Source: Cyanidioschyzon merolae
Lineage: Eukaryota
Length of the DNA: 64,000 nucleotides
NCBI GenBank assembly: GCA_000091205.1
Contig: AP006502.2
Reading direction: 5' to 3' (one strand)
Below are positions 11,006 to 64,000 of this stretch, piece after piece. Made by a program: the position numbers and the translations under genes. A model generated the notes under the pieces. That model was not told where the DNA came from. It saw only the letters and a program-made list of their open reading frames with translations, and searched no databases. Within the stretch, counting starts at the first letter, position 1. Each line of letters starts with the position of its first letter.

Positions 11006-11963
11006 TCCAGTACACTTCTCGTTCGTACAGAGCGCAGTTTACACGCAGCGTGCAGTAAAAACTCTCCGTAGCGCTCGTGCTCGTGTCAGCAGCTATGGTG
11101 GTGTGCGATCGCCCTTGCAGCAGTTTCGAACCGAACACAGGTAGCAGGCTGCGCGGGTGACCAGAGCCAACTCGTCCAAGAATGCCTCGCTTTCAGCTTC
11201 GTCAGTACCTTCAACTCTATGTACTTGTCAATGAACCGCAGGAAAAAACGGCGTAGGCCCGAGATCGTTCACAGCTCGGCCCCGATCTGCGGCCGCAGCT
11301 CGAGCAAGCCGTCACCAGGCCGCGTCGCTGCGTCTATGCACCACCTATGGAGCGTGTGTCCCGAACGGCCAACTGCTGGTCGCCTTCCAACAGGATGACC
11401 CTCTATATCCAAAACCCAAGCTGATTACTCAAGAAGCGAATAGGAACACACAGCAGCTTGGATGCACCTGTTACACACAACCACCCGTTACCAATAGACC
11501 TCCAGCGAGAGAAAGCGCCGCCCATCCATAGATTGGGACACCGGCGTCGGCGTCGATGTCGCCGTCGTCGATGTCGGCGTCGACGGCCTCATCGCGATGA
11601 ATCCACCGAACACCCGACATTCGTATGGCATTGCGGTAACGTGCAGTCATCGATCGACCATAAACTGGATGGCTACTTGCGATATGTCGTCAATGACTGG
11701 TCGACTGTGGGCTTGTGATCGTTGTTCAAATGAATGAGCGCGTTCCGTAATCATGTGAGGTACATGAATACCGACGGGCAGACGCCTCCTTGCCTTGTTC
11801 GACGCGCCCTCTGCTATCGGTGTCAGCCTCTCCTTGTACACGTCGGGTCTGAGAGGGGGTGCCCCTCAAGGCTGGTATACCGCAGCTGCACAGGTCTCTG
11901 CTTCAGTAACGCACACCTCCTGATATGTATAGCAGCGTGTAAGTTTCGATTCACAAACACAGT

Positions 11964-13760
11964 GTGTTGCTTGCTTCTGATTGTGTTCACCAGTGCAAGG
12001 AGTCCTCGAACTCGTGCCCTCAGTGCCACGGCAGTCTCGTCATCGTGCCATCGGGTGAACACCTCTTTATTTCCCTTCTTCTTCTTATTTTTGGTCACTT
12101 GTGCTTCTTCGATGGCTTGTTGACAAGAAGAGGATTTATTCGTTTTTTTCCTGCAGGCGGAGATGGCGGCCTTCCAGGATCCTCCACTTGCCTGTCCATT
12201 GCTTCCCGTTGGATTTTTGTTTCTTCAAATGAACGCACTTCAGACGCATGAGCTGTAACCGCGAAAAAGTATATGATTTCGCACACCTAGGAGAGTTACC
12301 AATTGAAGGGAACGTCTAGCAACGGCAGACGGTGCCATTTCCGCACGTCCGGTAAAGGCGTCACGATTTCGCTGGACGCCACGAAGCACTGCTTCATATG
12401 ATCTTTCTACTCAGTTTTATGGAACGACTGCTGTGGTGTGTAGCAAGCCACGGAAATTACCATGCCATGTATCATGCAGGTCTTAGAAGAATTGCCTGTA
12501 GTTTCTATATTCTTAACTGAACATTGCAAGGAGGACTACATTCCTCTTCAGGTCAGTCATATCACAATACCCAGATGATTGGGGAACACTGGATGAAACA
12601 AGTAGATGCGCTCCGCGCGAAACACCGATATTCTCGAAGAGTCCTTGCGGTCAATGGTAGGACAGGATAAACACCATGTGGTAAGCGAAAGCGACGATCG
12701 CAGTCACCACGGGCGGCTGTGTTTCTCAACAACGTTTGAATATTGTCCTGAAAACTCTAGGATGCTGGCACAATACAGTGCTCGTACAATTACGGTCATC
12801 TTTCACCGAAATCGCTACGACAACGTTTCTGGAACATCGCGATCGGCATGAAGTACAGGGACGTCGGGTTGTTTTCTCAATCGATGAGACTGACTTGGGA
12901 CGAGCCAGTCGGAGTGTAAATGGGAATTCGCGGAGCATGGTGCCCGTTGTATTTACGATCGGACGCGAGGAGAAGGGTGGCATCATCTGTTCTAGGTGGA
13001 GCGGATTCATTATGCGACCTCGGATTCGCTCGCAGACATGGCTCATACAACAGCTTCGACCACTTTATCAAATCATTGAAGGCTTTTTTCCTGACGTCTC
13101 GCGCCATGCTTCCATGAAGCAACATGGCATTTGACCGGTCCCGTTGCGTTCGAGCTTTTGCCGATTCTGTCGGAATGTAGAGCCGCTTTTCATTGCTCGG
13201 TACCCGCGGTGGTTCAACTCCATCGAACACATGTTTTCTATCTTGAACCGTAATGATCGCTCCACTGGGCGAATCGCGGATGCTTCCAGAACACAGGGAC
13301 ACAACGGGGCACAGGTCGTGTTTGTTCCGCAAGCCCTTCTCGCTAGGGGCAGGTCCTCGTCGATGGTCATAACAAAGTGCGTCCATTCGAAGACAAAAAG
13401 ATCCAAGGGAAACTTTTGGTGATGCACGTCGGGGATCGTGGAAGCCTGGTGGCTCCAGGATCTACAAAGAAACGAACATATCCTCTTCTCTCCGAACAAG
13501 GAGCGAAGAGGAAGAGCACGGAAGATGGCGGAGGAGTCTGCCTGACGGGACGCCAACGGGACTGTCGAGACACAGAGGGAACGAGTTCGAGCAATCCTTG
13601 CATTGGAGCGTTCAATCATCGGCAAAAATCGCATGGAGTTCGTGAACCGAGACTTATATGCCTCCGCCTCTATCGGGCGACGTGCGGTGCCGAGGACGAG
13701 ACCCAGGTAGCTGACACGATCCGACTTTATGGGACAACCTCCCAGGATCGAACTGTACAA
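11964..13760. mobile_element. Degenerate transposon-like repeat locus with inverted internal duplications and TnpB/Fanzor-like ORF fragments
   Basis: The ORF 11964-12251(+) ('RRGFIRFFPAGGDGGLPGSSTCLSIASRWIFVSSNERT') and ORF 13367-13615(-) ('RRGYVRFFVDPGATRLPRSPTCITKSFPWIFLSSNGRT') are inverted, diverged copies of the same segment. ORF 12736-13134(+) is homologous to ORF 56513-56947(-). ORF 13068-13760(-) begins 'YSSILGGCPIKSDRVSYLG', matching 'YNSILGGCPAKLALANSGG' at 62880-63224(+). The region is AT-richer than the flanking genes. Confidence 0.35.
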
Positions 13761-15380
13761 TGAGAAACTGAAGCCGACGGCAGTCGGCCGGTCGACAATG
13801 GCGGGAAGGCGTCTGCGCGTGGGTATGTGTATTTACTCTCCATATTCGGAAATTGCTGTTCGCTTCACTGACGTGTATTGCGTTCATGCCAGCCATGTGC
13901 TGTTCTAGACTGAGTTAATGATCAAAACTATGTGGATGTATCGAAGCAGTGCCTGAAGCGTACTCGAATTCTAAGGTTCGGACAAGGCGCTCCGACGCAC
14001 ACACAGCGCGCTAATAGATTCATGTCCATCGGGAGAAGCACTGCATCAGACCGATGGCGTGCTCGTCTTTTGAAACCATACTTTGGGATGCAGGTTGCGG
14101 CGCATCTAGATATCTTGAAGCTCGTAACTGCCGGACAGACAGAAAAACGCATCATTCCAAGGGATTGCTCAAGCATGTCTTGCATCGCTGGATCAGGTTC
14201 GGATGCCTGGCAGTGCTTCAACATCTGGGCTCGATCGAAACCGAAAGTCTTCGTACAAGGAGCCAAAATCCCTTTTCTGCTGACTTGCAGCATTTCCGTA
14301 TTCGAAATACTCGAACTGGATGTACTGATTCTTCACGTAAATGATTACTGACGGGGTCCATGCAGATTTTCGGCTTTTCTCACGTCCATTCTACAAGAAT
14401 ATCTTTGCGTTTCCATGGACTGCAAAAAGGCGAGCCTGCGTCTTCGCATTCTATCGATAGTGAGGAAATTGGCGACAGAAAACAAACCCCTACGAAACGT
14501 TGCTGCTGTCACGAGACACTTTGAGCCTGCACGCCGCATATTCCAGGAACGGAATAGGTGCCTGTTGCTCCGAGCACATACCAGGCTGCGGCGGTGGCGT
14601 TGTACTGACACCATGCACCAGTTGACAGTCGCATGTGGTAATTTTCCGGCTCCGGCGAGAGATCGGTTGCAACCCAGAGGCCAATGGAATTGTTGCCAGA
14701 GGATCATGTCGAGATTGGGTAGACCCGTGGTATTCGGATTTGTTCATCGATCATCATCGTTCGTGACACGATCGACAGAGTGCATCCACGGACAACAAGG
14801 CAGGCAATTCGGATGACATGCGCTCGACCACTGGCTATGAAATCATTTGGTGCTTAGCTGTGAACGAGCATGGCGGTGAGTCTTCAAATCGAGGGTTGTT
14901 TAGGTGTGCAATACGGGTCAATGTGCCGGGCGCGTTCCGGGCAAGAGAGATCCGCGTCCACCATCAAGTCACTGGACGTATCCAGTTGCCCGATCAATAA
15001 CGTTCTGCTTATCGATGATGACGTCGTCATTGAAGACCAGACACAGGCGCGGAAGAACCGAGGATACTCACCTGGTCCCGATCGACAGTGTATCGCGTCC
15101 ACGTCACTGAGACGACAACAAGTTCCAGCCGCTACTGCCCAGGAAATGGCGCATGCTCTGGTCCTCCTCATTTCAGGATGGACGGGTTTCACGCCAGATG
15201 CGCTGGGCGCAGAAAAGCACGGGCCGTGATCTTCGCGTGCGCTTCTGGTAAACCGAGCAGGCCTCGTTGACATTAGTAGCGGCTGCACAGCCGTCTGCGT
15301 TTCATTTGGAGTGCCATCCAATCGGAGCATCGTCAAGGACGCCGGCCCCGAGTGTGCCGCGTACTCGCCAGTGATTGATT

Positions 15381-26917: not shown

Positions 26918-28171
26918 TAGCGCATGTTGAACAGGATCCTCGGTTGCAGGCGGAATTGCGGCCGATCAGGCGAATAGATGCCGGTGTCTGAACGGAAGGT
27001 GCGCTGTTTGTTGGCGGCTCGCGGCCAGTATCGCAAGTTCGTATGCGGGACGCTGAAGTGGAACCAGTTCCTCAGCTAGCTTCCTGTTTGCACCTGGATG
27101 CTAAGCCTCGATGCTAGCTCTCTATGTGCAGTGTGCAGGACAGCATGCAGGCAAACAATGAAACAGAGCATGATCCTTATTCGTAAACAGGGCCAGTTAT
27201 CGTGCCGACAGACCCAGGATCCGAGTAAAGGAACTTACGCCCTGCACGTCTAGCTCCAGATTCGCAAAGATATGCATGTGAGCACGGGTGCAAGTCCATT
27301 TAAAATCAAGCGTACAGCGCTTGCTCGATAGATAGAGAATCGAGCAGCACGAAAACTGCATGTGGATGTCACGCTGCAGCGACATTTACCTCCATTTTCT
27401 TCGGGCTTGGACGAGCGACAACGGCTGCCAGGTGAGCCAACATCAACAGCCGAGCGCGATGCCGTTCTCCTGCACGCCCAGCAATGATATGCAGAGTGAC
27501 GGATTCCCATTCATTCCATCTGGTCAGCGCTCTTTCGCGACAACTGATATTAATGTAAGCAATCTGTTTGGAGAATTTACATACGCATGCATAAAACGGG
27601 ACCTTGTTTTCGTGCTGTTCTGCCTGGTCGTGAAGCGTAGCGCGATGCGTCGAGTCCTCGGTCGTTTCCGCGGACTGGAGCTATACTGGCGAATCTCGTC
27701 AGTGCACACACGTCAAGTCGACGGATATCTGCCTCTGGAATCGCTGGAATCGTTCACCAGGGATATGGGGAGCACTCGACGCTTCAAGTATGCCCTCTTG
27801 GTGCACGCTGAAGAATCGAATCATGGAACACCAGCATCATCTATCAATCGCCCAGGAAAATCGTTATAGGTATCAAGAAACGGTGCTCCAGCCCCTCGAT
27901 TCAGCGGAACTACACTGCACTAGTGCCGCGCTCTAGACGAAAGTCTGATCCCCGTTCCCCTCGCCACTGCTCTTTGTCCATCAGAATTCTTTAATAATTG
28001 TGCACCATGCCCACACGGCATGCAACACGATTCCCTCGAATATTCATTTGACAAAACGCTGCGGGACGCTTCGGAAGCACGAAGCATTTCCTCACTTTGA
28101 CCGAGGCGTTCAAGTCTCCGCGCAGAAAGTACGTGCACACATGATTGCTGTTGGAATTATACCATAACAAA

Positions 28172-28516
28172 CTACCTGCATTCGACTGCCTCGCCATCTG
28201 GCTGGACGTCAGCATACCGGGAATCATCCCGTACGTTCTGCTCTTTTGTGAGACGCTTCTTCTCTTCCAGTTCCAACGCGTATTTGTGCTTGTGATGCGC
28301 GTATGCTGTCCTAGACGCATCGATGAACATCGGATACATTGGATTGCTGCATTCGTTGTACGTTCTCTTCCGGGGAGCAGCGGTGCAGCCCTTGCGAGCT
28401 AGAATACGTCCAGGGCCACCGGCGACCTTCAAACGAAGCGACGTATCGGAAATTTGCTTTTCTAAATCATAGAGTATACTCGGGAATGCTCGCTGCTTGC
28501 GTTCGTAGAACTGCAA
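28172..28516 (-). mobile_element. Degenerate fragment of the TnpB/Fanzor-like repeat family (RuvC-II-region homologue)
   Basis: ORF 'FPSILYDLEKQISDTSLRLKVAGGPGRILARKGCTAAPRKRTYNEC...IDASRTAYAHH' is clearly homologous to 63081-63548(-) 'FASFFIQLIALKKDRSQRLVVAYGAGRWMAQKGCIPAPTTRTYKEC...LDEFRTSSTHH'. Confidence 0.35.
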
Positions 28517-28540
28517 CCTTTTGCGAACCTCTACTTTGTC

Positions 28541-29158
28541 TCACTGACTCCTGAAAAGTACACTCCGAGTGAGCCTTTCGGACGTTCGCGACTTCAATAA
28601 TAACGAAGCACACAGAGCATGCTTCTCTGCTCGATTAGGTACCGAGCGCGTTGATGTGGCCCTGCTGTCATCATTCCACCTGTTGTTAAACGTACTTGCG
28701 TCCATTACGCTGGATTTCCAACGATATCTAGCTATGGGAAGGTCAGCTCGCATAGCATCTTCTGTCTGGTGTACCAATCCTCGCGGGAATGTTTGATAGA
28801 AGAATTCCAGAGGGATATAGGCAGCTGGCAGCTCTGCGTCTGGAACTGTCACGAACAGTTGCATGACGAGATATGTCACGCCGAGGAAGGCTAAGCGAGA
28901 CTTTCTCGAATAAGAACCTATGCGATCGTCAATGAAGGCGAGCATGAATCGACGCCAAGGATACGTAAGATTCGTCTGCTGATCTGGGAGCGTAGAATTG
29001 GTGTTTGATGTAAGAGAAGACACCTTGAATGGGAACGAACCATGGAGAACGGGCTCGTACGACGATAAGCTCAACGCCAAGCTCAGTTGCGTACTTTTTG
29101 ACCGCTTTTGATTGATGAAAAGCGACATTTTCAGAGAGAGCAGCCACGAAGCGTACAT
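28541..29158 (-). CDS. Hypothetical ORF; possible downstream part of a frame-disrupted PlsC-like acyltransferase gene (very tentative)
   Basis: 205-aa ORF in an AT-richer region. ORFs just upstream on the same strand carry acyltransferase-like motifs, 'AGNQETDSIL' at ~29760-29790 and 'KPGTRQSTGAGRSIL' at ~29660-29695, but they lie in different frames and too close together. Confidence 0.2.
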   Translation of the reverse strand: MYASWLLSLKMSLFINQKRSKSTQLSLALSLSSYEPVLHGSFPFKVSSLTSNTNSTLPDQQTNLTYPWRRFMLAFIDDRIGSYSRKSRLAFLGVTYLVMQLFVTVPDAELPAAYIPLEFFYQTFPRGLVHQTEDAMRADLPIARYRWKSSVMDASTFNNRWNDDSRATSTRSVPNRAEKHALCASLLLKSRTSERLTRSVLFRSQ

Positions 29159-30831
29159 CGCTGAAGAATGAGGTGTCGAATGATCCGGTCTGTTTGGCGA
29201 TTTCTAGGCGACCAAACGATTGATTCGCCGCTGCCACTGGTAGTGTCGCCGTGCTCGCTCGTCGCTGCTTTACGAACAGCGGCTTGTTTACACGTTTGAG
29301 GGCCCAAATACACAGGTCTGCCATTTCTCCGAAATAAAATCTCCCCGAGAAAGACGTACACACGTCAGTCCTGTAATACGTGTTGCAGTTTTACTATGAA
29401 ATAGACGGCGCTGCTCAACGCGCAACCGCCTTCCATGGAAGCGTCTTTTCTTCTCCATCCATGTCTTTTTCTTTCCTTTTGTATCAACGGCACGGCAACT
29501 GTGCATCTTGAGGCTTCTTCTACAGTATTTCTTCGTGAGCATGCAGATTAGAATGGCTTGCTCCGGAGCCAATTGTGTTGATCGAGCTGGAGAAACTCTG
29601 TTTTGTGCGAAAGGCGTTCTGGATACGGACTGCAAGAAGGATGGATCTTCCCGCACCTGTTGATTGCCGAGTACCTGGCTTGGACAGGAGAGGTCTTTTT
29701 CGCACGCTAGTAGAGACACCATCAAGCTAGTCCGCGAACGTTCTCCAATGTGCAGGATAGAATCCGTTTCTTGATTACCTGCCAGAAAAACAAACGCAAA
29801 CAATTAAGGTGTATTGCGACGGGAATTCCAGAATTCACTGCTCTGCATGTAACGATAGGGGGTCGCTGTTGTGCCAACGGACGTACTGCCAACGCCTGTT
29901 GGGCCACGAAGCACACCTACGACCTAGGGGCTACGCAACGCTTCTAGCAAGGGACGTTCGGGTCCCTCGCATTCGCCCCAGGCACCGAGCGGCTCGTCAG
30001 AATGTCAAAGGGCTGCTTCTTGCAAACTCCGCCCTCATCGCGCATAGGTGTAGTGTGCGCTCATGAAGAGTTGGAACAACACAGAATCGCGTCTGTGACA
30101 CTGTTAATTCTGACGCACTTAGTATTGCCCTGCCGACTAACGGAGCTGGAGTGCAACTGTCTCCTTGGTGCCTAGCAACTTCTGGGCGTCACTATGGACG
30201 CCAACTGGTTACCGCTCACGCCCAGTGCAGCGCTGGCATCCGAAGTAGCCCCGCCCGAGCCGCTCCAATATCATGGCCAGTAGACAGACCCGCGAGGTCC
30301 AGGTACAAGTCTCGCGTATTGGACGAGCCCAATGGGCCAGTGCTCGGAGCGCCTCCGCAGTTGCAGGTGCCGAGCAAAGGCCTGTGTCCAGAGACGGCTA
30401 CGCGTTCTCCAAGCGACCGCGAAGATAGCGCCGGACACTGAAACTGTGTCCTGGTCGCCACGGACCTCCAGTGTGACTGCACTTGCCGATTGACAGACAG
30501 CTCGAGCCGATGTAGCAAACAGGCAGAGAATGGCCTTTTGGTCTCTCTTTATGCGTTCGATCACCGGTGCGTCACCGAATCCATCAGGCCCCTATTCCTG
30601 CGAAGCATACCTGTCTGGAACAGTTGGAACGGTTAGTCGTCTGCATGGAAAGTAAACCCGGTTTCCTAATCACGACTACGACTCATACAGCCCGTGTTAC
30701 CTGGCTCTATATAACCGCCTCATCGAAGTCAATGCACGACTCGTTGGCTAAGTACGGTTGGCAGCGGACCCGTTGCACTGCACCAGGCACAGCGCTACAT
30801 GCTACCGTCCAGGCACATGCGCATTCGTGCA

Positions 30832-36483: not shown

Positions 36484-39400
36484 ATATCGGTCGTTGAATG
36501 CGAAGAATTTAAAGTCTGGGATGCATTACCCGAGACCAGCGGACGCCGCTGGCAAGTGCTCGGTTTCTGCTTGCGCTGCGAGCGCTGCCCAGTGCCGAAT
36601 GTCGTGGCCAGCAGGGCGACTTTCGCGATGCGGCATCGACAGGCGCTCCGAGTGCTCAGTCATATCGAAGCAGGGGACCTCATGACCGGTCAGCTGTTGC
36701 CCAGGAAAACCGTTGTCGGTGAAAATGTACGAGGCGTCCTGCTTGCACGATTGCTGAACCGTACCATACCAGTGCATCGCTCCAGACGAGAAGCCGATGT
36801 GCGCTTGCTGGAGCTTTGCTTTTCCTTGGTGGCAAGTTTTCCGCGTTTCAGCATCATGCGTATACGGTGTATGGAATGGTTCACGTGAAGCTTTCACCTG
36901 CGGCAAACCCGATGGACGCTTCTGACGCACGAGACGTCTCCGGATGTGAATTGACGTGTTCGAGCTTCGGTGCAGCGCGTGTTTGCACACATCGTTGCCG
37001 ATGGCATCACTGCATAGCAAACCTGGTACCGTCGATTGCTTCGTCATCTGATATTCGGTCTGCGTACTGTGGATTATCTCGTGGATCCGGCCCTGTTGCA
37101 TTCCCTTTTTTGTTGTAGCAGTATCAGCGGGTACTCGTGCTTGTGGGGCGTGTTCTTCGTCCTTGACGCGTGCATTGGAATCGAACCCAATCGATTCCTT
37201 TATTGGTTGCTTGCTCTCGTCGACGGAGCAGGAGTGCAGGAATCGCGCGCTAGAGCACATCCAGCGCTACAGGCTACCACTGAACGACGCAACTTGTCAC
37301 CCGCGTCCTTTTTCAACGCACTGAGCAAGTTGGCGAATCCACGATCCTGGTCACCGTACAGCCAAAAGCCCCAGCGTCTCGTGCTCGATCTCGTGTACGC
37401 TTGGTGATGATCGATGACATGATCCGTATTGACGCACATTGGTGCTCAGAAGCGTAGCATCCATAGCTACAGTTCCCGCTCTTCTGAGCCAGGAAGGTTA
37501 GGGAACAGAACGCACGGGGTTCGCCTCATGAAGCGCTCAACATTGACCCAGGTATGTTTTCGTTCTCGTGCGATAGGTTTGATACTTTTTGCATTTACGC
37601 TTTAGATAATGCGATAGCGGACTTTCAGCACAGACAGTTCACGGTATCCGGGAAGGCGTTTGTGCGAATCTCGGATCCGACCATCATGCTAGCTAGCATC
37701 TTCAGAAGCGAGCATCACCTTTCGTACGAATGCTAGATCGAACGATTTCATAGTAACGAGGACAGCTGGTAACCGTTCGACCGGAGCGCCCGATTCATTG
37801 TTGCATACCGGTACGCGTCTAGGCGAGGGAAGCTGAACGAGCCTTCCCCGAAGTCAGAGGCTACTCGATCATGAACCGCATTCGGCGTCTTACTCTTTGG
37901 AGGATTCTCCACGCTGGTATGTTTTCGTAAAAACGCCTTGACAACGACATCAGATTGATGTTTCTGCTGCAGCCGTTTCTCCCGCTTGTCCATCCTCGTC
38001 CACTATTTGAAAGAATCGCTCTCTTCTTTTCGTAATGGTTTATTGCACCTTCCCGTTACTTTACAGGGTGACATATTCGTGGTCGCAGTACGCTATATTC
38101 ATGGTGTCCTCCGGGTTCAAGTGCATTTAGTGGACGATGGGAATGAATACCGCCTTTTCTATGCTTGTGAAGACGATGCCACAGGTACCATTTCGTCACC
38201 GTCGACGTCACGAGCACAACCGTGCAGAAAATCACGCCTTGCCGCTCGCTCCCGCACACTGTCAGAAGAGCAACAGAGCATTTCAGGACTGGTGAAGGTA
38301 GCGAACGACTCGTCATTTGATCTGAGCGCGTCACCATCGCGTTTGGTAGCGGAGCAGACGCCTTGGATTTGGATTGAGTCAATGAGAATAGGCTGCCGCT
38401 ATGAGCAGCTCAACGCCATTCGCAGCTGCATGCTCCTCGACCGCCCTTGGGTGGTTCAGAACGACGTTACCTAGAAGCACCGCAGAAGAACGTGCCAAAA
38501 GACAAGTCACGACGAGCTTCGTTGAGGGCTGGGCATGTTGCACCATCACGTCTGTTGGGCGGTCTGTAGGCGACCGACGCTCAACATCGCCCCGGGTGCT
38601 GATGCTGTCGTCATGCTCGATTGTCTCTTCTTGATGAGCAGCGTTTAACCGGTTTTCGAGTTCGCAAATTCAGATATGCGTTTTCTCGCGAATAAGGTCT
38701 CATCGAATGAGACGAATACGCGCCCCTTCTGAAGTAAGCGTTCGCGTTTCAGTACGGAATCGATGTGTGTATTGTTCAGCGGGCGACGGTCTCGCATCCA
38801 AGTGTGGTTCTCTGTTCGTCCGTCCACGCTTCCTCATGATCGGCCGCATGAACAGTACGGAAACTGAACATATCGTGGCTACTTTCGAAGTATACATTTG
38901 AGAACAACTGGATTGAAATGGATGAACGGGAAGGCAAATGTCTAGACTGAGTTTTATAGCATCTGGTCCAGGTGCACGACGTTCAGCACCAACGCTACGA
39001 GGCCGGCGATTTATCCACCTGCTGACTATTGATTAATCCAATGATGGGAGCAACGCTGTTTTCGGAAGCCAGTACCGACAAGATTTACGCTTCATGTGCC
39101 GGCACTCTAAGCTATAAGACGCAGTCCGTTCATTGGATAACTGCGAGAAAGAAACACAGGAACAAAAGATTCATACCGATATCGGTATTCCTGATTGTAC
39201 TGCTTTGCGTCTAGCGAAAGACGCAAACTCGGATTAGCCCCAAAATGTGATTCCTGCGAGATTCCAGATCTATATCCGCGTCGGTTTCAGAATAAATACG
39301 ACTGTTTGCGATGCATTTGCCAAGCGAGTGCTTACCGAGCCTTCGTCGATAAGCATGTTCGAGACTAGAAGCACAGCCATAAAGTCCTACAGATGCGCAA

Positions 39401-54948: not shown

Positions 54949-56390
54949 GACAGTGGGACCGACGAGGAACTAGGTGGGCCTTTGTAACAGCAGCTGCAGC
55001 AGCCGCAGCAGCAGCACAACGGGTCGCATCCGAAAAACCTCTGTACAGCGGCTCGCATTTCAGCGTCTGAGAAAACGGGTGTTCTCGCCGAGGCTAGCCG
55101 CCTGCGGATCTCGAATTCGATGTTGCTTCGGCTGCTGACAAGCGCCAGCCTGCTGCCTCATTTCATCATGAGTTTTACGTTTCTAAAAATGGATAGCTTG
55201 CATTAGATTTTGCGTTGCTGTATAGAGGCCGTTCTACACAAGGATATCATGGAAGTTCTTTCCAATCGAGGGTAATTTGCGTTCGAACCTAATCATGTAG
55301 CTGACTCCGAGTACCCGCAGACCTGCATTGGAAGAAGCTGTGCAGGATCGAAAGCTGTAAAAGATACCTATGGACACGTCGACCTAGCTCTCTGCGCTCA
55401 GCGTGCGTCGAAGTAGATGCATACAGTCGGTCGCACGAAGCTGCTTCTTTTTCCAAGTGGGTAACGTGCACTAAACCACTGCGAGATTCACATGCAACTC
55501 TGAACTTGTCGCTCTGTTGCTGCTCTTCATTTTTCTCTTCCCAACTTTTTTAAATGGTCAACTTCGGCGTTTGAGGAGAAGCAGTAAGGACTTTCGGACT
55601 CATATGCAGTTTTCAAATGCTCTGTCGTCTTTTCAGAGTGATTTCAATGACGCCTTGTCGCTGGAATTCGTCACGACCTCTGAATCAAGATCATTCGCGA
55701 CACGCTGGAACAAGGGTACCTAAAATAACCCAAATCCTTATCGGATGCATATGCACAAGCCTTTCATCTTGTTGTTTCCCGAACAACAGCATGTTCAAAT
55801 CACAAAGTCTTCATGTGTGCGATTTTGCTTTTCCAACGCAAGTTATGGGCGAAGCAATTTTCGCAGAGGTAAAGCCTTTTTCGACCGACCACCACCTATT
55901 GACGTCAGCTTCCTCCTGCACACCTCAAGTCTGAGAGACTGCCCCATAAACCTGCATCGCGTCAGCTCCTCGGTTCTCTTCTTCAGCACTATATATCGTC
56001 GGATACTGAAGGTGACGTTGGAGTCTCGTTTCACGAACTCCTCGCATATATTGCCGCTTGTTGAATTCACCCATGCAAGGATTGCCAGAACACGAGTACT
56101 CAGTACCATTGACTGCTCTGTCAGCTCTCCGTACTTTTCTATCGCGCGAAGCGCTCCGCTGCCTTCTCTCTATCTCGATGTTCTGAAGTGTACACCGCAG
56201 CTCATCCCTTGGATTTCTTATTTCTTCAAATGGCGCGCTTCTTTATGCCGTTAGATGAGGAGCTAACCGGAGCGAGAAGGGCTTGCAGACGAAGGACGCA
56301 ATGTGGCCAGGTACCAATGTGTGCTGAACGCTGCAGCGACTCGCCCCGTTGAGCATTAAAAACGTCTCATAATAGAAAAAAACACTTTCT

Positions 56391-57509: not shown

Positions 57510-60500
57510 TTGCACGCTGCCCTCATGGCTGATCGTGGTACCTCCGTCTCCTCGTTCGAGTCGGAGACATTTGGAGACAGCACGCTAAGAGGCAGCAGCG
57601 AACTCAATAATGGACAGGAACGAGGCACGCGCACACGTCGAAGCAGTGCACGTCACCGCAGTCGTTTGTCGAGTTTCTTTGCTCCACCACAGATTCGAAG
57701 CGATCCAAAGGAAGCCAAGTTCCTCCTTGAGACGCTATCCTCGAAGCAGGTAACTTGGCAAATTCTCAACATATGCAGTGCAATCGTGCTCTCCGTCACC
57801 TACACGCTAGCAATGAGTCTGTTTGCACGCCGTTTCGAAGCGGCACTCCCGGCACTCAACCTCGTTGACCGCGTCGTCGTGTACTGCTTTTGCGTGCTCC
57901 AGCTTACTTTCACGATCGTCTACTTTTTGCGTCTCTATCGGTATGGATGGATCCGTTGCACCTTCGAAATGCGCAGCTGCTTCCTACAAGGTCTATTTAT
58001 ATTCTTTACGATGAATATTATAGGCAATATTGCACGAACGATATCGGAAGCGAGCGGCACCACGATCGCCATTCTCTATGTCTCCGACCTGGTCTGGCAA
58101 TGGTTCTGGATATTTGGTTTTTATGGACACGCCATGGCTATTCTACGACTCTATCGTGATATGAAGGATCGCCACACGTTTCTAGAACGAAACCGCGTGG
58201 TATTTGGTCTCTGTTTGATCATCGCCGCCGTGGAGACAGCCATTTGCGGCTGGTCTCGAACGACGTTAGGACTCACCTGGCCGGGCATGTTGGTTCAGTT
58301 CGCTATGCGTGGACACCAACAACAAGCGGCCTACTCGCTTACGTTCGCGCTCGTGGTTACCATGCGCATTTTCCTCGATGGCTGGATTGCCATGGAGCTC
58401 TACCGCGCCTTCCGAGTGCTCCAGCAGCTGCCGTATACCTGTTGTCATCACAAACAAATGGGTGCTCGTTTCTACCGTGTCTTTACTGCGATATCCTATA
58501 TATTCCTGATTGCAAACGATACCATCGCAGTGGGCCTGGTACCATTACCAAGCGCGAACGCGTCCCTCGATGGCGTACCGTTGCGGTTGCTGGGTATTGC
58601 ACGATTCAATGGTGGTGCCTTCGCGATGCTCTTTACATGGTCGGTGCTCCTGCTCTATGTGCATTTACCTCCGACAGTGCTGGGTGTTTGGCTGCCCTGG
58701 ATCGTTGCGCTGGCTCCGGACCCAGCTGCATATCAAGAAAAGCGAGCCCCACAAAGGAGCGTTTCCTCCGAGTGGGAGTTGTCCGCGCACAGCGCCAGCC
58801 AGGCGGCACCGTGGCCAGCGGACGCACTGGATGCAGAGCGAGAGCTGCGCAAAGCAAACCTCTACTACCAGACTGAGCAGGAAGCACTGCGAAATGGAGA
58901 CAGCTGGCTCTCGCGCTCACTTGTCCTCGAGACGCATGTTTTGATCTTCAACATGGCGTACCTGTCCTATCGACCGTGGCATGACCCGCATATGTATGCA
59001 GAGATGTTCAATCATTATGGTGTGGGCGAAATGGACCCCCTGCAAGCACGAGTCGTGCGGCATATCTCCAGCGCCGTTACAGATGTACATGTGCTCGTCA
59101 TTGACTTGGCGGATAGGATTGTGGTGAGCTTTCGCGGTACCAAAAGCACCAGAAATTTACGCACAGATATGAATGTCCGACGGGTTCCTCTCGAGGAGCA
59201 CCTGCATGCACGTGAATGTCCGCAAATACAGGATACGTGGCGCTTGAGCGCCTGCAGCAAACACGGTCAACGCGGGTCGTTGCGGGAGTCACCGGCGAAA
59301 GCGACTGTCGACGGTACAACTCGAATGCCTCGTACGACGAATGCTGTAAGCACCACTGCCTTGGCTGCCGGGCGTAGCGGCACCTCGGCTGCGACTTGTT
59401 CGCAAATACCGCCCGCAACACATAGCAAGCGCGAAATAGATTCGACTAGGAAGCACCAGGCATCAGTGGAGGCCTTTGCCAAGGACGATTCGGATATAGA
59501 GCGCGGTCTTGATGATGCCCTGTCACAGGAACTCGGTGTGGATCCTGGAGGCCGTTTTGCACATCGTCGATGGTGGCAGTATATGCTGAGCGTACGCGGG
59601 ATCCGTTCCCTGCGCTTTGGTGATTTTCGCGCTCAGGCTGGTGACGATTTTTCGTATCTCATAGGGCGACGAGTGCCTACAATGGTGCACGATGGATTTT
59701 TGCACGCCTATTTATCCGTGCGTGAAGAGTTAATGGAGACGCTGAAACCGCTTGTTGCAAAGCCCTCGAGCACTGCACCAACTGCAGTGGATGCGGCTTG
59801 CGCGCCCTTGAGCAGCACCTGCGGCGATGCCACTTGTGGTGTCGCTACCAGCCTGGATAGGCGCGTGCAACCATCGAACCGCTTTCCCGAGGTGTCCAGT
59901 GCGGATATTCATGGCGGTTGTGAACACGGGCAGCAGCAACAGCAGCTGAGCTTAGCGGGTACAGAGACCGCAGCGCGGTGTCGAAGCGAAACTGCTACAG
60001 CAGCAGCAGCAGCAGCAGCAGCAGATGCGAGCGAAGCGCAACCGTGTAGTGCGATGAACTCCTTGGATAGTGCATCTTGCAACCACAAACCGGTGATCTT
60101 TTGAGGTCACTCTCTCGGCGGGGCTCTGGCAAGCATCGCTGCCCTCGATATGACGTGTTTTGAGAATTCACAGTCGTTGCGTCTGTCATCGGATCTGGTG
60201 ATGTGTGTGACTTTTGGGTCGCCTCGAGTCGGGAATCGCGCTTTCGCTGCAGCGTTCCAGCGACATGTGCCGTTTTCATTCCGATGGGCAGCGGTCGGCG
60301 ATATCGGGACGAAACTGCCTTTCTGGGGTTATGAGCATGTTCCGGTCAAGATGATGCTGGATCCGTTGTTGGGGAGCATTCTCATGGATCCCTCGATCAT
60401 CGAGGAGTCCATGGTAGCGTTCCGGAACGCTTTGGATGCGCACCTGCGACCCGCATATATCCAGGGGTTTGAGCGCTGGTGTCGGCGCTACCACCCCCGC

Positions 60501-60578
60501 TGGAATGTGCAGTTCTGGGATTTCCACGACGTGTTTGATGACCCCGCCCTAGGTGCTGCTTTGGAAAGCATCACATGA
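57510..60578 (+). CDS. Transmembrane class-3 (fungal-type/DAGL-like) lipase with an in-frame TGA at 60102-60104 splitting it into ORFs 57510-60104 and 60105/60150-60578
   Basis: N-terminal multi-TM region. Lipase_3 motifs in order: 'VLVIDLADRIVVSFRGT' (~59110-59145), 'VHDGFLHAYL' (~59686-59715), then '...NHKPVIF*GHSLGGALASIAAL' (TGA, then GHSLGG nucleophile elbow 60105-60122), 'VGDIGTKLP' (catalytic Asp region) and 'YEHVP' (catalytic His). Both ORFs share one reading frame. Large low-complexity inserts (polyA/polyQ, (CAG)9 at ~59998-60024) lie between the motifs. Confidence 0.7.
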
Positions 60579-61572
60579 TGAATGCATGACCTATGCAAGC
60601 GCATGGCTGCTGGAGCGTGCCACTTGTCCTCAAGGTCCGCTACGCTTCGCAAACGGGCGCAAGTGCGCTACCCACAGAAGCACACCAGCATCACGAAGGT
60701 GAGCAACGACATGTCGGGTACGCGAGGCACGCTTGAGCATCAGCCGAATGGTGTCTTGGATCACGCCCGGTGCGAGGTCGCTCAAATATGTGGCTCTCGC
60801 CACACGCTCCACCTCGACGACCTGCAAAAAAGTACACCTCTGCGAATCATGCTCCAGAGGTATGCATCAAAGGTTCCGCCCGATGTTCGTCGAATCGTCA
60901 TGCAGACTGGTCGGTGGATGAATGCAGCACCTTCATCGCCAAAGTGAAACGCGTTGACGTCCGAGTGGAGAGCGTGAACCGTCCCCGGTCGACTGGACGC
61001 GGAATCCGTCCGAATTCCCGGTAGCGAAATAGACGCGATCCGCCACTGGCTACCCTGAAAAGCGTCTCTGGCGGGTACTTCTGCGAAATCCAGAATGAGG
61101 CATGCTGCGCTCTGTCCACTAGTCTGCAGGTCTGGCTCTGACACTGCCGCATCGATGCTGGAGTTTAAGCTGCGCCCCAGTGATCGACGCATGCTGCGGT
61201 TGCTGAGATTGGTCTCTCGATAGTCAGTCGTAGTGCCTCAACCAGCGCCAATATTCCTGCTGAATTCATGCTTGTCGCGAGTACGCCTTTGAGCGCGTTT
61301 GCCGACAGAGGCCGGCGCCGTGGTGCTCGCAGCACAGCAAGCGATCATGTGCTCTTTGAGCAGCTACAGACAAGCACCACTTTTGCAGCGCATGGTACAC
61401 GCGATGGACGCGAGCGTAGCTTCCAACGATCCGCGATCTAGTCCTGAGGTATTCCGGCGGCGATAATCACCACCCAGTATCATGACTGAAACGCTGTAAA
61501 CGATGCATCATGCGATATCCACAGGGCCAGGGCACGGCGATGATTCAGCGGCAATCTCGCTCAAATGCTAGC

Positions 61573-62241
61573 TTACTGAGGATTCTCCAGGGTTTCGTTT
61601 TTGTTGGATGATCGTCGCCGATGATGTCGTCTTTTCTTTCTCACGGAAGACGCGTTCTTGGCCGCTGGGTGCACGTCATCCTCGTGCTCTGGCTCTAACG
61701 ACGACGACGACGACGAAACGGATGCAGACCTCCCGTGGTCGCGCTTTGCAGAGGCGCCATCCTGCGCTCCACCAGGTGCCCTCTTCTTCGAGCGCATGCG
61801 TTCGGGTTCAAGTCTCGCATCAGAGGTATCCAATGCCAGCATCAAACGCCGCTCGTCGCGTGTGCAGAGCTCCTCGCCAAGCCCTAGTTTCAAGAGCAAG
61901 AGTCGAAACCGACTTTCTGGGCGACGTAAGATACGTGACATCGACCGTGACTGCGAACCGAATACACCATCTGCAGTTGCCGCGTCTGCAAGCTCTTCCA
62001 GATGCTCCCAGGCAACGACCTGGCGGTATCCCGGAGTCTTGGATGCCTGGTCCACGATCTTCGCAACTTGCCTCACAAAAGGACTGCCTTCAGCCTGCAG
62101 TTCATGCTCGCCTTTCCGCCAGTAAGACATAGCGACTGATGCGACGCCAAATACTGAGTTGGGTGAGTCGACGCGTGCTGCCAGTTTGCTTTTGCTGTTC
62201 GAGATCGGCAAGGAATCGCCTGGCAACACGGTCCATGGCAT
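61573..62241 (-). CDS. Hypothetical protein (Ser/Arg/Lys-rich C-terminus); may continue from ORF 62102-62365(-) across a frame break
   Basis: 222-aa ORF with a poly-Ser and basic tail. The neighbouring same-strand ORF 62102-62365 overlaps it in another frame, so a frameshift, a short intron or a mis-call is possible. (ACG)6 at 61698-61716. Confidence 0.25.
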   Translation of the reverse strand: MPWTVLPGDSLPISNSKSKLAARVDSPNSVFGVASVAMSYWRKGEHELQAEGSPFVRQVAKIVDQASKTPGYRQVVAWEHLEELADAATADGVFGSQSRSMSRILRRPESRFRLLLLKLGLGEELCTRDERRLMLALDTSDARLEPERMRSKKRAPGGAQDGASAKRDHGRSASVSSSSSSLEPEHEDDVHPAAKNASSVRKKRRHHRRRSSNKNETLENPQ

Positions 62242-62879
62242 CGTCCGATTCTATTTCCCAGTCACAAGACTCGTTCTCTATGTCTTGCTCTAAAGATGTA
62301 AGCGACTTGTCGAGTACCTCAAGTGCCTTGGCTGCCAGCCCTGCACACTGCATCCCAAAACGCACTTGCTCCTCGGGTGTCAGTTTCGCTTGGACGAGTG
62401 CTCGCAGCTCTGCAGGTGATGCAAACGTGCTCAGATTACCGGCTTCCTTGGCTTTGCATCACCTTTTATGCAGCTTTCCTCTCTCTCGATGCCCGGGTTC
62501 AGCTTTGGCTGCCATGAGAGCTGCTGCGCGTGCCGTTGCAACAGAGATGCGAGCGTGGTGGTTAGGAGGAGGTCAGAAAACTGAAACAATCCATATGATG
62601 GTCTCTCCAAAGCGTCAAAGTCTTCAAGGCAGTAACCGGACTTGTCGCTTCCGCTGTCAATCAGCAGAAAAGCGCATAGCGTACGCCCCGTGCCGCACAG
62701 AGGAAGCAGCACGTTGGTTTCGAAGATCGATAGAAGACGTTTTTGATAAACAATTCGCCTCTGGAAACACCACCAAACGCCTTGCAAAAGAGAAACGCTG
62801 GAAAGCCAGTGTACAAGAGTGGCGTTTCTCACACCGTCCGTCGTAGACCGAATGTCTACCCATCGATGTACAGACGCCT

Positions 62880-63550
62880 GTGCCGGCGTTCCGCAACTGG
62901 CCACCTACTACTGGTTTCAACTTCTTCTCGTATAACTCCATTTTGGGAGGTTGCCCCGCAAAGTTGGCTCTCGCCAACTCCGGGGGTCTTCTTTCCAGTA
63001 CTGCACACCTCCTTATACTGATGGCGGCGTTAAAGTCTCAGTCCAGGAACTCTATTCGTTTCTTCCTATCATTAGTTGTACTAACCAATGCGAGTAGTCC
63101 TCGAAGGTTCGCCCTCCTTGCCATTTGCATTTCCGTCAGCGAGCCGCTGGCTTTTCTCCATCGCGACCCTCTGAAGTGTACAACACAGCTCGTGGTGTGT
63201 AGAAGATGTTCGAAACTCATCTAAAGGTATTTCGACATAACGGTGTGCGCACTCCTTGTACGTTCTTGTCGTTGGAGCTGGTATACACCCTTTTTGGGCC
63301 ATCCAGCGCCCTGCCCCGTATGCTACTACGAGCCTTTGGCTCCTGTCCTTCTTGAGGGCGATCAACTGAATGAAAAAGCTGGCGAATACTCGCTGCTTCC
63401 AACAGTACAGGTTCATACGCAAACGAGCCCACCTGAACTTTGTGCATTCTTTCCAAAGGCTCTCGTCATGAGCTGCGTGAATGCTCATAACCTCTCGAAA
63501 CGCTTCAATATCGGCTCCGCGGCTCGTCACCTGGCTGATCGCTTCCAAAT
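62880..63550. mobile_element. TnpB/Fanzor-like degenerate element copy (RuvC-I-like segment on + strand, RuvC-II/Zn-finger-like segment on - strand)
   Basis: 63081-63548(-): 'FFIQLIALKKDRSQRLVVAYGAGRWMAQKG...RTYKECAHRYVEIPLDEFRTSSTHHELCC...RLADGNANG'. This has the same spacing as TnpB 'VEDLNVKGMLKN...SDAGWGEF...[29 protein letters not shown]...DRDLNAAINI' (20 residues from YK to SS in both). 62880-63224(+): 'SILGGCPAKLALANSGG' against the RuvC-I region 'GIDLGLKTLAITSDGK'. Catalytic D/E positions look substituted. Confidence 0.35.
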
Positions 63551-64000
63551 TCCCTTCACTCCTGAATTCGATGTCTCACTTTTATTCCTTGCATTCATTA
63601 TACCGGATTCTCGGTAATATCTCGCTCATGAGAGCTTCAACAGACTTATGTCTTTCTGACGTAAGTTGCCGTCAGAGCCATCTTCCTCACGCTTGGGTGC
63701 TGCAATGGTAACGATGTGGGTGTTCCCGGGATCCATGTCAACGGCAAACGCGTTCTTCTGCGCCTCCAGCGCCGTTGGGCTCGCCTCCTGGTCCGTCCTC
63801 GGCTTCGCCCGTGGCGAAGGATGTAGATGAGAAGGATGCGGATCCTGCGACGCAGGAAGTGGAAAAGTACAACCTTGTAGACGGCTCGGCGAAGGATGTA
63901 GATGAGAATGATGCAGATCTTGCGATGCAGGAGGTGCAGGATCACGACTTTGTCGTTGGCGTGGACCCTGGGAATACGAACATCATAACCATCGCAGTAC

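What the first reader, a model, noticed from the sequence alone, without database searches (positions are those of the whole stretch)
62880..63550. Degenerate TnpB/Fanzor-like (RNA-guided nuclease ancestor) relic in a eukaryotic nuclear context
ORF 63081-63548(-) keeps the order and spacing of the TnpB RuvC-II / zinc-finger / RuvC-III region. 'FIQLIALKKD' matches 'VEDLNVKGMLKN' with the catalytic Glu replaced. 'AYGAGRW' matches 'SDAGWGEF'. 'YKECAHRYVEIPLDEFRTSS' matches '[20 protein letters not shown]' with identical length from YK to SS. 'HHELCC' sits where CxxC is expected, and 'ADGNANG' matches 'DRDLNAAINI'. The convergent + strand ORF has 'SILGGCPAKLALANSGG', resembling RuvC-I 'GIDLGLKTLAITSDG' with the Asp lost. 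Eukaryotic TnpB homologues (Fanzors) are sparsely sampled, so a new, apparently inactivated lineage in an alga-like genome is worth recording. The convergent arrangement of N- and C-terminal-like pieces is also unusual.
Basis: partly seen in the sequence, partly recalled or inferred. Interest (0 to 1): 0.7.

Follow-up and report, generated by a model that had tools for sequence, protein, structure and literature searches.

The report
Dead copy of known algal Fanzor transposon
The flagged ORF is a real but dead, 5'-truncated copy of CMe-1A, a Fanzor1 (eukaryotic TnpB-like, RNA-guided nuclease) transposon family of the red alga Cyanidioschyzon merolae that was described in 2013, so it is genuine but ordinary.

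Summary
The window is Cyanidioschyzon merolae 10D chromosome 20 (exact protein matches). The 155-aa ORF 63081-63548(-) is real. It is the middle third of a longer pseudogene, window 63789->62778 (-). That stretch aligns to positions 2140-3169 of the published 3169-bp CMe-1A consensus at 77% identity, and to Fanzor1 protein CMe-1 residues 403-732 at E=3e-118.

Bao & Jurka 2013 (PMC3627910) already reported about 150 such copies, each about 80% identical to the consensus. The family is Fanzor1. The ORF hits a profile of distant full-length relatives at E=3.7e-38, and that profile hits solved Fanzor1 structures at E down to 1.5e-19.

This copy is dead. It lacks the N-terminal 402 residues and carries two in-frame stops and two frameshifts. 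It evolves neutrally against an orthologous metagenome copy (pN/pS 0.94).

- The "RuvC-I on the convergent + strand" is the antisense of the C-terminal tail.
- The "lost Glu" is a trait of all Fanzors, not an inactivation.

A second copy abuts head-to-head at 63786 and runs off the window. Verdict: already known, low interest.

The parts
62778..63789 (-). 5'-truncated, degraded copy of transposon CMe-1A (consensus positions 2140-3169). It encodes the remains of Fanzor1 residues 403-732 plus the 3' untranslated end.
   Evidence: blastn against the published consensus gives 77.3% identity over 1041 columns and reaches the last consensus base. tblastn against CMe-1 gives three segments in two reading frames, E=3e-118.
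63701..63745 (-). True RuvC-I motif AVDMDPGNTHIVTIA (catalytic Asp retained). An in-frame stop follows downstream at 63626-63628 (LKLS*ARYY).
   Evidence: The family consensus is VVGADPGNTNIITIA. It aligns to DPGR of Parasitella Fanzor1.
63081..63548 (-). It contains the RuvC-II strand RLVVAYGAGRW (63335->63303, Gly at the canonical Glu position), the relocated Glu in IPLDEFRTSS (63230->63201), and THHELCC (63200->63180) in place of CxxC. Frameshifts lie at about 63551-63557 and about 63110-63145.
   Evidence: The Glu rearrangement is from PMC10530073.
62855..63145 (-). C-terminal third in another frame: GSLTEMQMARRANLRGLLALVSTTND...EFLD*DFNAAISIRRCAVLERRPPELARANFAGQPPKMELYEKK. The RuvC-III motif is here, with its Arg codon mutated to a stop at 63038-63040.
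   Evidence: The same stop is present in the orthologous metagenome copy L082.
62778..62860 (-). Non-coding 3' end of the element, ending ...TTTTGCAAGGCG. The consensus hairpins are decayed in this copy.
63786..64000 (+). Second CMe-1A copy, head-to-head with the first. It starts at consensus position 2093, contains a 75-bp internal duplication, shows the RuvC-I motif VVGVDPGNTNIITIA at 63952-63996, and runs off the window.
   Evidence: blastn: 63786-63889 matches consensus 2093-2196 (82%) and 63888-64000 matches consensus 2120-2232 (86%).
11773..12268 (-). Another CMe-1A fragment with an internal deletion (consensus 840-969 joined to about 2840-3090).
13576..13827 (+). CMe-1A 3' fragment (protein residues 646-730).
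27994..29203 (-). Older, more diverged Fanzor1 remnant (residues about 534-699 plus traces of the N-terminal region).
36874..38002 (-). Older, more diverged Fanzor1 remnant (residues 104-197, 525-612 and 635-697).
55873..56239 (-). CMe-1A 3' fragment (consensus 2737-3071, 68% identity).

Best explanation
Window 62778-63789 (- strand) is a dead, 5'-truncated copy of CMe-1A. CMe-1A is the old, roughly 150-copy Fanzor1-carrying transposable element of Cyanidioschyzon merolae described by Bao & Jurka in 2013. The flagged 155-aa ORF is the longest surviving open stretch of its Fanzor1 gene (residues 492-627, from RuvC-II to the zinc-finger region).

Shown here: identity with the published family, membership of that family in Fanzor1, the disabling lesions, and neutral evolution.

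Inferred from work on other Fanzors: an intact member of the family would be an RNA-guided DNA endonuclease. It would use a single RuvC site made of Asp (RuvC-I), a relocated Glu in the DEFRTS strand, and Asp (RuvC-III). Its guide RNA would be transcribed from the 3' end of the element. As shown for bacterial TnpB, such a nuclease probably helps the element persist by cutting sites that lack it.

This copy can do none of that. It has no promoter-proximal half, no N-terminal 402 residues (the guide- and target-binding parts), two stops and two frameshifts.
For: Host: seven window ORFs are exact matches to C. merolae 10D chromosome 20 proteins CMT537-553.

Identity with the known family: the CMe-1A consensus and CMe-1 protein were taken from the supplements of PMC3627910. 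blastn gives 77.3% identity over consensus 2140-3169. tblastn gives E=3e-118 over residues 403-732. This fits the paper's 'about 150 copies, each about 80% identical to the consensus'.

Fanzor1 membership: a profile of the close family finds 1126 relatives, including 560-750-aa proteins. A profile of 53 of those hits solved Fanzor1 structures: Parasitella 9cf0 at 1.5e-19, Spizellomyces 8gkh at 3.2e-10, Guillardia 9cer at 1.2e-6. The DPG, DEFRTS and NRDxNAAxN motifs are aligned. The same profile hits the window ORF at 3.7e-38.

Death: stops at 63626-63628 and 63038-63040, two frame changes, and a start at consensus position 2140. An orthologous copy in a hot-spring metagenome (L082, 95.4% identical, including 411 bp of unique flank) shares the second stop. 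Against it the relic shows pN/pS 0.94, and 5.1% substitutions versus 3.4% in the flank.
Against: Pfam gave no significant hit for the ORF or for close relatives. The best hit in distant relatives was Cas12f1-like_TNB at E=0.0023. The close-family profile alone found nothing in the PDB, so the link to solved Fanzor1 structures is transitive, through distant relatives. The structure prediction failed (pLDDT 38), so there is no fold-level confirmation. No nuclease activity or guide RNA has been shown for this family. The CxxC...CxxC zinc finger is not conserved in it.
Confidence: 0.95

Rival explanations
1. It is a previously unsampled, independently inactivated TnpB/Fanzor lineage.
For: Pfam does not recognise it. 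The canonical RuvC-II Glu and the CxxC motif are absent.
Against: The sequence matches a family published in 2013 at 77% DNA identity and 66-75% protein identity. The Glu relocation is shared by Fanzors generally (PMC10530073). HHELGC is the family consensus, not a lesion of this copy.
Confidence: 0.02
2. The ORF is a live gene, meaning a domesticated or still active truncated Fanzor fragment under selection.
For: A 155-aa frame is open. An orthologous copy is retained in a relative, where the frame is 169 aa. Bao & Jurka note that some CMe-1A copies keep intact ORFs.
Against: pN/pS is 0.94 between orthologues. The substitution rate is not lower than in the flank. The ORF lacks RuvC-I and RuvC-III in frame and begins with TTG in the ORF listing. 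The exact product (from its first ATG) is absent from the protein collection.
Confidence: 0.02
3. It is a remnant of an unrelated transposase (hAT, MULE, PIF), or a chance ORF with look-alike motifs.
For: None found.
Against: No transposase family hit in Pfam. There are strong specific matches to Fanzor1 sequences and structures.
Confidence: 0.01

Closest known systems
CMe-1A / Fanzor1 protein CMe-1 of Cyanidioschyzon merolae (Bao & Jurka 2013, Mobile DNA 4:12; Repbase-type consensus)
   Same: Same genome and same element. The match is 77% DNA identity to consensus 2140-3169, including the exact 3' terminus, and 66-75% protein identity over residues 403-732. The divergence level is the one reported for the family.
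   Different: This copy lacks consensus positions 1-2139, carries stops and frameshifts, and is joined head-to-head to a second truncated copy.
Structurally solved Fanzor1 nucleases (Parasitella parasitica 9cf0, Spizellomyces punctatus 8gkh, Guillardia theta 9cer)
   Same: Same order of conserved elements: TDG-containing strand, xDPGxxN RuvC-I, Gly at the canonical RuvC-II Glu position, (I/V)DE(F/Y)(R/K)TS with the relocated Glu, and NRDxNAAxN RuvC-III.
   Different: The CMe-1 family has HHELGC...EKC and LALVSTT where these proteins have CxxC and a Cys-containing second half-finger. Activity and guide RNA are untested for CMe-1.
Bacterial TnpB (IS200/IS605, IS607) and Cas12
   Same: Same RuvC-based RNA-guided nuclease superfamily. 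Like IS200/IS605, the element lacks terminal inverted repeats.
   Different: TnpB1 and Cas12 keep the canonical RuvC-II Glu. CMe-1A encodes no TnpA-type transposase, and its mobilising enzyme is unknown.

Membership tests
CMe-1A element of C. merolae | DNA similarity to the published 3169-bp consensus, including a terminus | tested here: met
   77.3% identity over consensus 2140-3169, ending on the last consensus base at window 62778.
CMe-1A element of C. merolae | Host genome is Cyanidioschyzon merolae | tested here: met
   Seven exact protein matches to strain 10D chromosome 20 genes.
Fanzor1 | Significant sequence similarity to established Fanzor1 proteins | tested here: met
   The window ORF hits the clade profile at E=3.7e-38. 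That profile hits PDB Fanzor1 chains at E=1.5e-19, 3.2e-10 and 1.2e-6. The link is transitive, because the close-family profile alone gave no PDB hit.
Fanzor1 | RuvC-I Asp in a GxDPG-type motif | tested here: met
   AVDMDPGNT at 63745->63701.
Fanzor1 | Canonical RuvC-II Glu replaced by Gly/Pro, with a conserved Glu further downstream | tested here: met
   VVAYGAGRW has Gly aligned to SpuFz1 VVMGDW. The Glu of LDEFRTS is 32 residues downstream of the AYG Gly and aligned to PpFz1 IDEFRTS and SpuFz1 LDEYKTS. The criterion is from PMC10530073.
Fanzor1 | RuvC-III Asp in an RDxNAAxNI motif | tested here: met
   D*DFNAAISI: the Asp is retained, but the preceding Arg codon is a stop at 63038-63040.
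Fanzor1 | CxxC...CxxC zinc finger between RuvC-II and RuvC-III | tested here: not met
   The family consensus is THHELGC...EKC...LLALVSTT, and the window has THHELCC. His/Cys ligands may substitute, but this was not tested. It is a family-wide deviation, not specific to this copy.
Fanzor1 | N-terminal guide/target-binding half (REC/WED) | tested here: not met
   Present in the family consensus (residues 1-402). Absent from this copy, which starts at consensus position 2140.
Fanzor1 | Guide (omega/f) RNA encoded at the 3' end of the element | tested here: inconclusive
   The consensus 3' 100 nt folds into three hairpins, but the z-score is only -1.2. RNAalifold on 24 copies gives -4.3 kcal/mol and one covarying pair. 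The 3' end is no more conserved than the ORF. There is no Rfam match.
Fanzor1 | RNA-guided DNA cleavage | not testable with these tools
   This needs biochemistry on an intact CMe-1 protein.

The most novel reading that the evidence does not exclude
The way CMe-1A copies lie in this window could be a footprint of the family's still unknown transposition mechanism. The relevant observations are:
- two 5'-truncated copies fused head-to-head within 4 bp at nearly the same consensus position (2093 and 2140);
- all seven copies or fragments retain the 3' part, and four of them are only 3'-side pieces;
- a sharply defined 3' terminus ending in a hairpin that two subfamilies build in different registers;
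- no terminal inverted repeats.

These could point to a single-strand or rolling-circle (HUH-like) route, or to break-repair copying that starts at the 3' end, perhaps triggered by the Fanzor nuclease itself.
Probability: 0.08. Interest if true: 0.5.

Novelty: already known. Interest (0 to 1): 0.1.

Why it matters
It matters little. The result correctly labels about 1 kb of C. merolae chromosome 20 as a decayed copy of a transposon family catalogued in 2013. It also shows that at least seven such remnants lie in this 64-kb window. The only open question it touches is how CMe-1A moves. The element has no terminal inverted repeats, no known target-site duplication and no transposase, and the termini and junctions recorded here could serve a genome-wide study of that question.

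Tried and rejected
- Pfam on the ORF and neighbouring ORFs, and on close and distant relatives, gave nothing significant.
- A PDB sequence search with the close-family profile gave no hit. It succeeded only with a profile of distant relatives.
- AlphaFold2 of relative P0020 with a shallow, low-diversity alignment gave pLDDT 38, which is unusable. No fold search was run.
- Attempts to read beyond the window end, to see the rest of the + strand copy, failed. Exact-product look-ups for the 859-aa ORF and for CMT553C returned nothing. Ten further ORFs near the window end are not in the collection.
- None of the 80 related metagenome loci is syntenic with the window flank 60500-62777, and the two arms of the head-to-head pair do not align to each other by blastn.
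- None of those 80 loci has an intact full-length ORF. The longest open frame covers residues 133-731.
- The search for an omega-RNA-like conserved structure at the 3' end was inconclusive.
- Tandem Repeats Finder did not report the 75-bp duplication. It is seen only by self-BLAST and by the double match to the consensus.

Full report
**What is at the coordinates.**
The ORF listing confirms a 155-aa ORF at 63081-63548 on the - strand. Translating the - strand in all frames shows that this ORF is only the middle of a longer broken reading frame.
- Upstream, in another frame, lies ...EASPTALEAQKNAFAVDMDPGNTHIVTIAAPKREEDGSDGNLRQKDISLLKLS*ARYYRESGIMNARNKSETSNSGVKG.
- Downstream, again in that other frame, lies ...GSLTEMQMARRANLRGLLALVSTTNDRKKRIEFLD*DFNAAISIRRCAVLERRPPELARANFAGQPPKMELYEKK...

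**Which genome.**
Seven long ORFs of the window are exact matches to annotated proteins of Cyanidioschyzon merolae strain 10D. They are CMT537-553-series genes on the 1.62-Mb chromosome 20. The "alga-like eukaryotic nuclear context" is therefore correct.

**What the sequence is.**
- A search with the stitched translation found 168 relatives at 55-92% identity. All are unnamed metagenome proteins. Their alignment gives a clear family consensus.
- A literature search led to Bao & Jurka 2013 (PMC3627910). That paper lists one Fanzor1 family in C. merolae, CMe-1A. It has a 3169-bp consensus, about 150 copies each about 80% identical to the consensus, no terminal inverted repeats, undetermined target-site duplications, and a 734-aa Fanzor1 protein.
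- I took the consensus DNA and protein from the paper's supplements and compared them with the window.
- Window 63789->62778 (-) aligns to consensus 2140-3169 at 77.3% identity and reaches the last consensus base.
- The flagged feature is therefore a copy of an already described element.

**Is the family really Fanzor/TnpB-like?**
- Pfam does not recognise the ORF or its close relatives. A profile of close relatives finds nothing in the PDB.
- That same profile finds 1126 proteins in the representative library, including many 560-750-aa proteins.
- A profile of 53 of those (A3) hits solved Fanzor1 structures: Parasitella 9cf0 at 1.5e-19, Spizellomyces 8gkh at 3.2e-10 and Guillardia 9cer at 1.2e-6. 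The TDG strand, DPG (RuvC-I), DEFRTS and NRDxNAAxN (RuvC-III) are in register.
- The same profile hits the window's open frame 63084-63575(-) at 3.7e-38.
- Bao & Jurka also placed CMe-1 among Fanzor1 proteins.

- Two are at the right place: the YK...DEFRTSS strand, and HHELCC in the CxxC position. HHELGC is the family consensus.
- The other pairings are wrong.
- The RuvC-II strand is RLVVAYGAGRW, not FIQLIALKKD.
- ADGNANG is read-through after a frameshift. The real RuvC-III motif, D*DFNAAISI, lies about 80 bp further downstream (toward lower coordinates) in another frame.
- The + strand "RuvC-I" (62937-62987) is the antisense of the C-terminal tail.
- The absence of the canonical RuvC-II Glu is not an inactivation. 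Jiang et al. 2023 (PMC10530073) report that Fanzors carry Gly/Pro there and use a conserved Glu about 45 residues downstream, which is essential for cleavage. In this copy that Glu (LDEFRTS) is 32 residues downstream and still present.

**Why this copy is dead.**
- It starts at consensus position 2140, so it lacks the 5' non-coding region and the first 402 residues.
- It has in-frame stops at 63626-63628 and 63038-63040, and two frame changes.
- A 1234-bp hot-spring metagenome contig (L082) is the orthologous locus in a close relative. It is 95.4% identical across window 63601->62367, including 411 bp of unique flank.
- L082 shares the second stop.
- The relic has diverged at 5.1% against 3.4% for the flank. 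In the 155-aa frame there are 14 nonsynonymous and 4 synonymous differences, giving pN/pS 0.94. This is neutral decay.

**Surroundings.**
- A second copy on the + strand begins at 63786 (consensus 2093). It contains a 75-bp internal duplication, shows VVGVDPGNTNIITIA at 63952-63996, and runs off the window.
- The two copies meet head-to-head with at most 4 bp of overlap.
- The + copy is closer to the consensus (82-86% against 77%). A nested insertion of a younger truncated copy into an older one is therefore plausible.
- I could not read beyond the window to decide this.
- Five more fragments of the family lie at 11773-12268, 13576-13827, 27994-29203, 36874-38002 and 55873-56239.

**Mechanism.**
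- Shown: family identity, the motif set and the lesions.
- Inferred from other Fanzors and from TnpB: an intact CMe-1 would be an RNA-guided double-strand DNA endonuclease whose guide RNA comes from the 3' end of the element.
- I looked for such an RNA and found nothing convincing.
- The consensus 3' 100 nt can form three hairpins, but not significantly better than shuffles (z = -1.2).
- RNAalifold on 24 copies is weak, at -4.3 kcal/mol with one covarying pair.
- Conservation along the element is flat.
- Rfam has no match.
- None of 80 related metagenome loci carries an intact full-length ORF.

**Verdict.**
This is a genuine Fanzor1 relic, but it belongs to a family published in 2013. It is not a new lineage and it has no function of its own. 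Interest is low.

Noticed in passing
window 63786-63789 (junction); copies 62778-63789(-) and 63786-64000(+): Two 5'-truncated CMe-1A copies are fused head-to-head with at most 4 bp of overlap, truncated at nearly the same consensus position (2140 and 2093). The + copy is less diverged from the consensus (82-86% against 77%). This could be a nested insertion or an inverted junction.
   Followed up: partly
window 63813-63861 and 63888-63936; relatives P0017, P0097, P0021: A 75-bp (25-aa, acidic: KDEDEKEADPATQEVEDNDFVVD) unit just before the RuvC-I strand is duplicated in the + strand copy. It is present in 1 to about 6 tandem copies in metagenome relatives. Each unit repeats the start of the first RuvC strand.
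   Followed up: partly
window 11773-12268, 13576-13827, 27994-29203, 36874-38002, 55873-56239: Five further CMe-1A/Fanzor1 remnants lie in the same 64 kb, against a genome average of about one per 110 kb if there are 150 copies in about 16.5 Mb (genome size from my own knowledge). Two are old and very diverged. One (11773-12268) is an internal-deletion derivative that joins the start-codon region to the 3' end.
   Followed up: partly
loci L001-L081, element termini; window 62758-62777: Sequence just outside the published consensus ends is not random. The 3' flank has T at +1 in 26/26 copies, T at +2 in 24/26, G at +4 in 18/26 and G at +7 in 19/26. The 5' flank is a T-run at -6 to -2. Either the consensus is a few bases short at both ends, or the element prefers a T-rich target.
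   Followed up: partly
last 24 nt of the element in loci L003, L012, L043, L068 versus the consensus type; window 62778-62801: There are two 3'-terminal subtypes, ...GCAGCGTTTTTCTTTTGAAAGGCG and ...GCGTCGTTCGACTTTCGAACGGCG. Both fold into a hairpin ending on the last base, but in different pairing registers. This suggests a selected terminal stem-loop, as at the ends of Helitron or IS200/IS605 elements.
   Followed up: partly
L032 and L035 (about 55 bp between a CMe-1A 3' end and the next 5' end): In one metagenome locus a CMe-1A 3' end is followed 55 bp later by a CMe-1A/TE-N2_CMe-type 5' end, in a head-to-tail arrangement.
   Followed up: no
family consensus (A1, CMe-1 residues 608-660): The CMe-1 family and its wider clade lack the CxxC...CxxC zinc finger of TnpB and of the solved Fanzor1 proteins. 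They have THHELGC...EKC and LLALVSTT instead. Whether His/Cys still bind zinc is unknown.
   Followed up: no
relatives P0021, P0030, P0067, P0097 (N-terminal half): The precomputed annotation lists Pfam PF26935.1 on the N-terminal part of some relatives. The local Pfam scan returned no such hit, so I could not tell what that model is.
   Followed up: no
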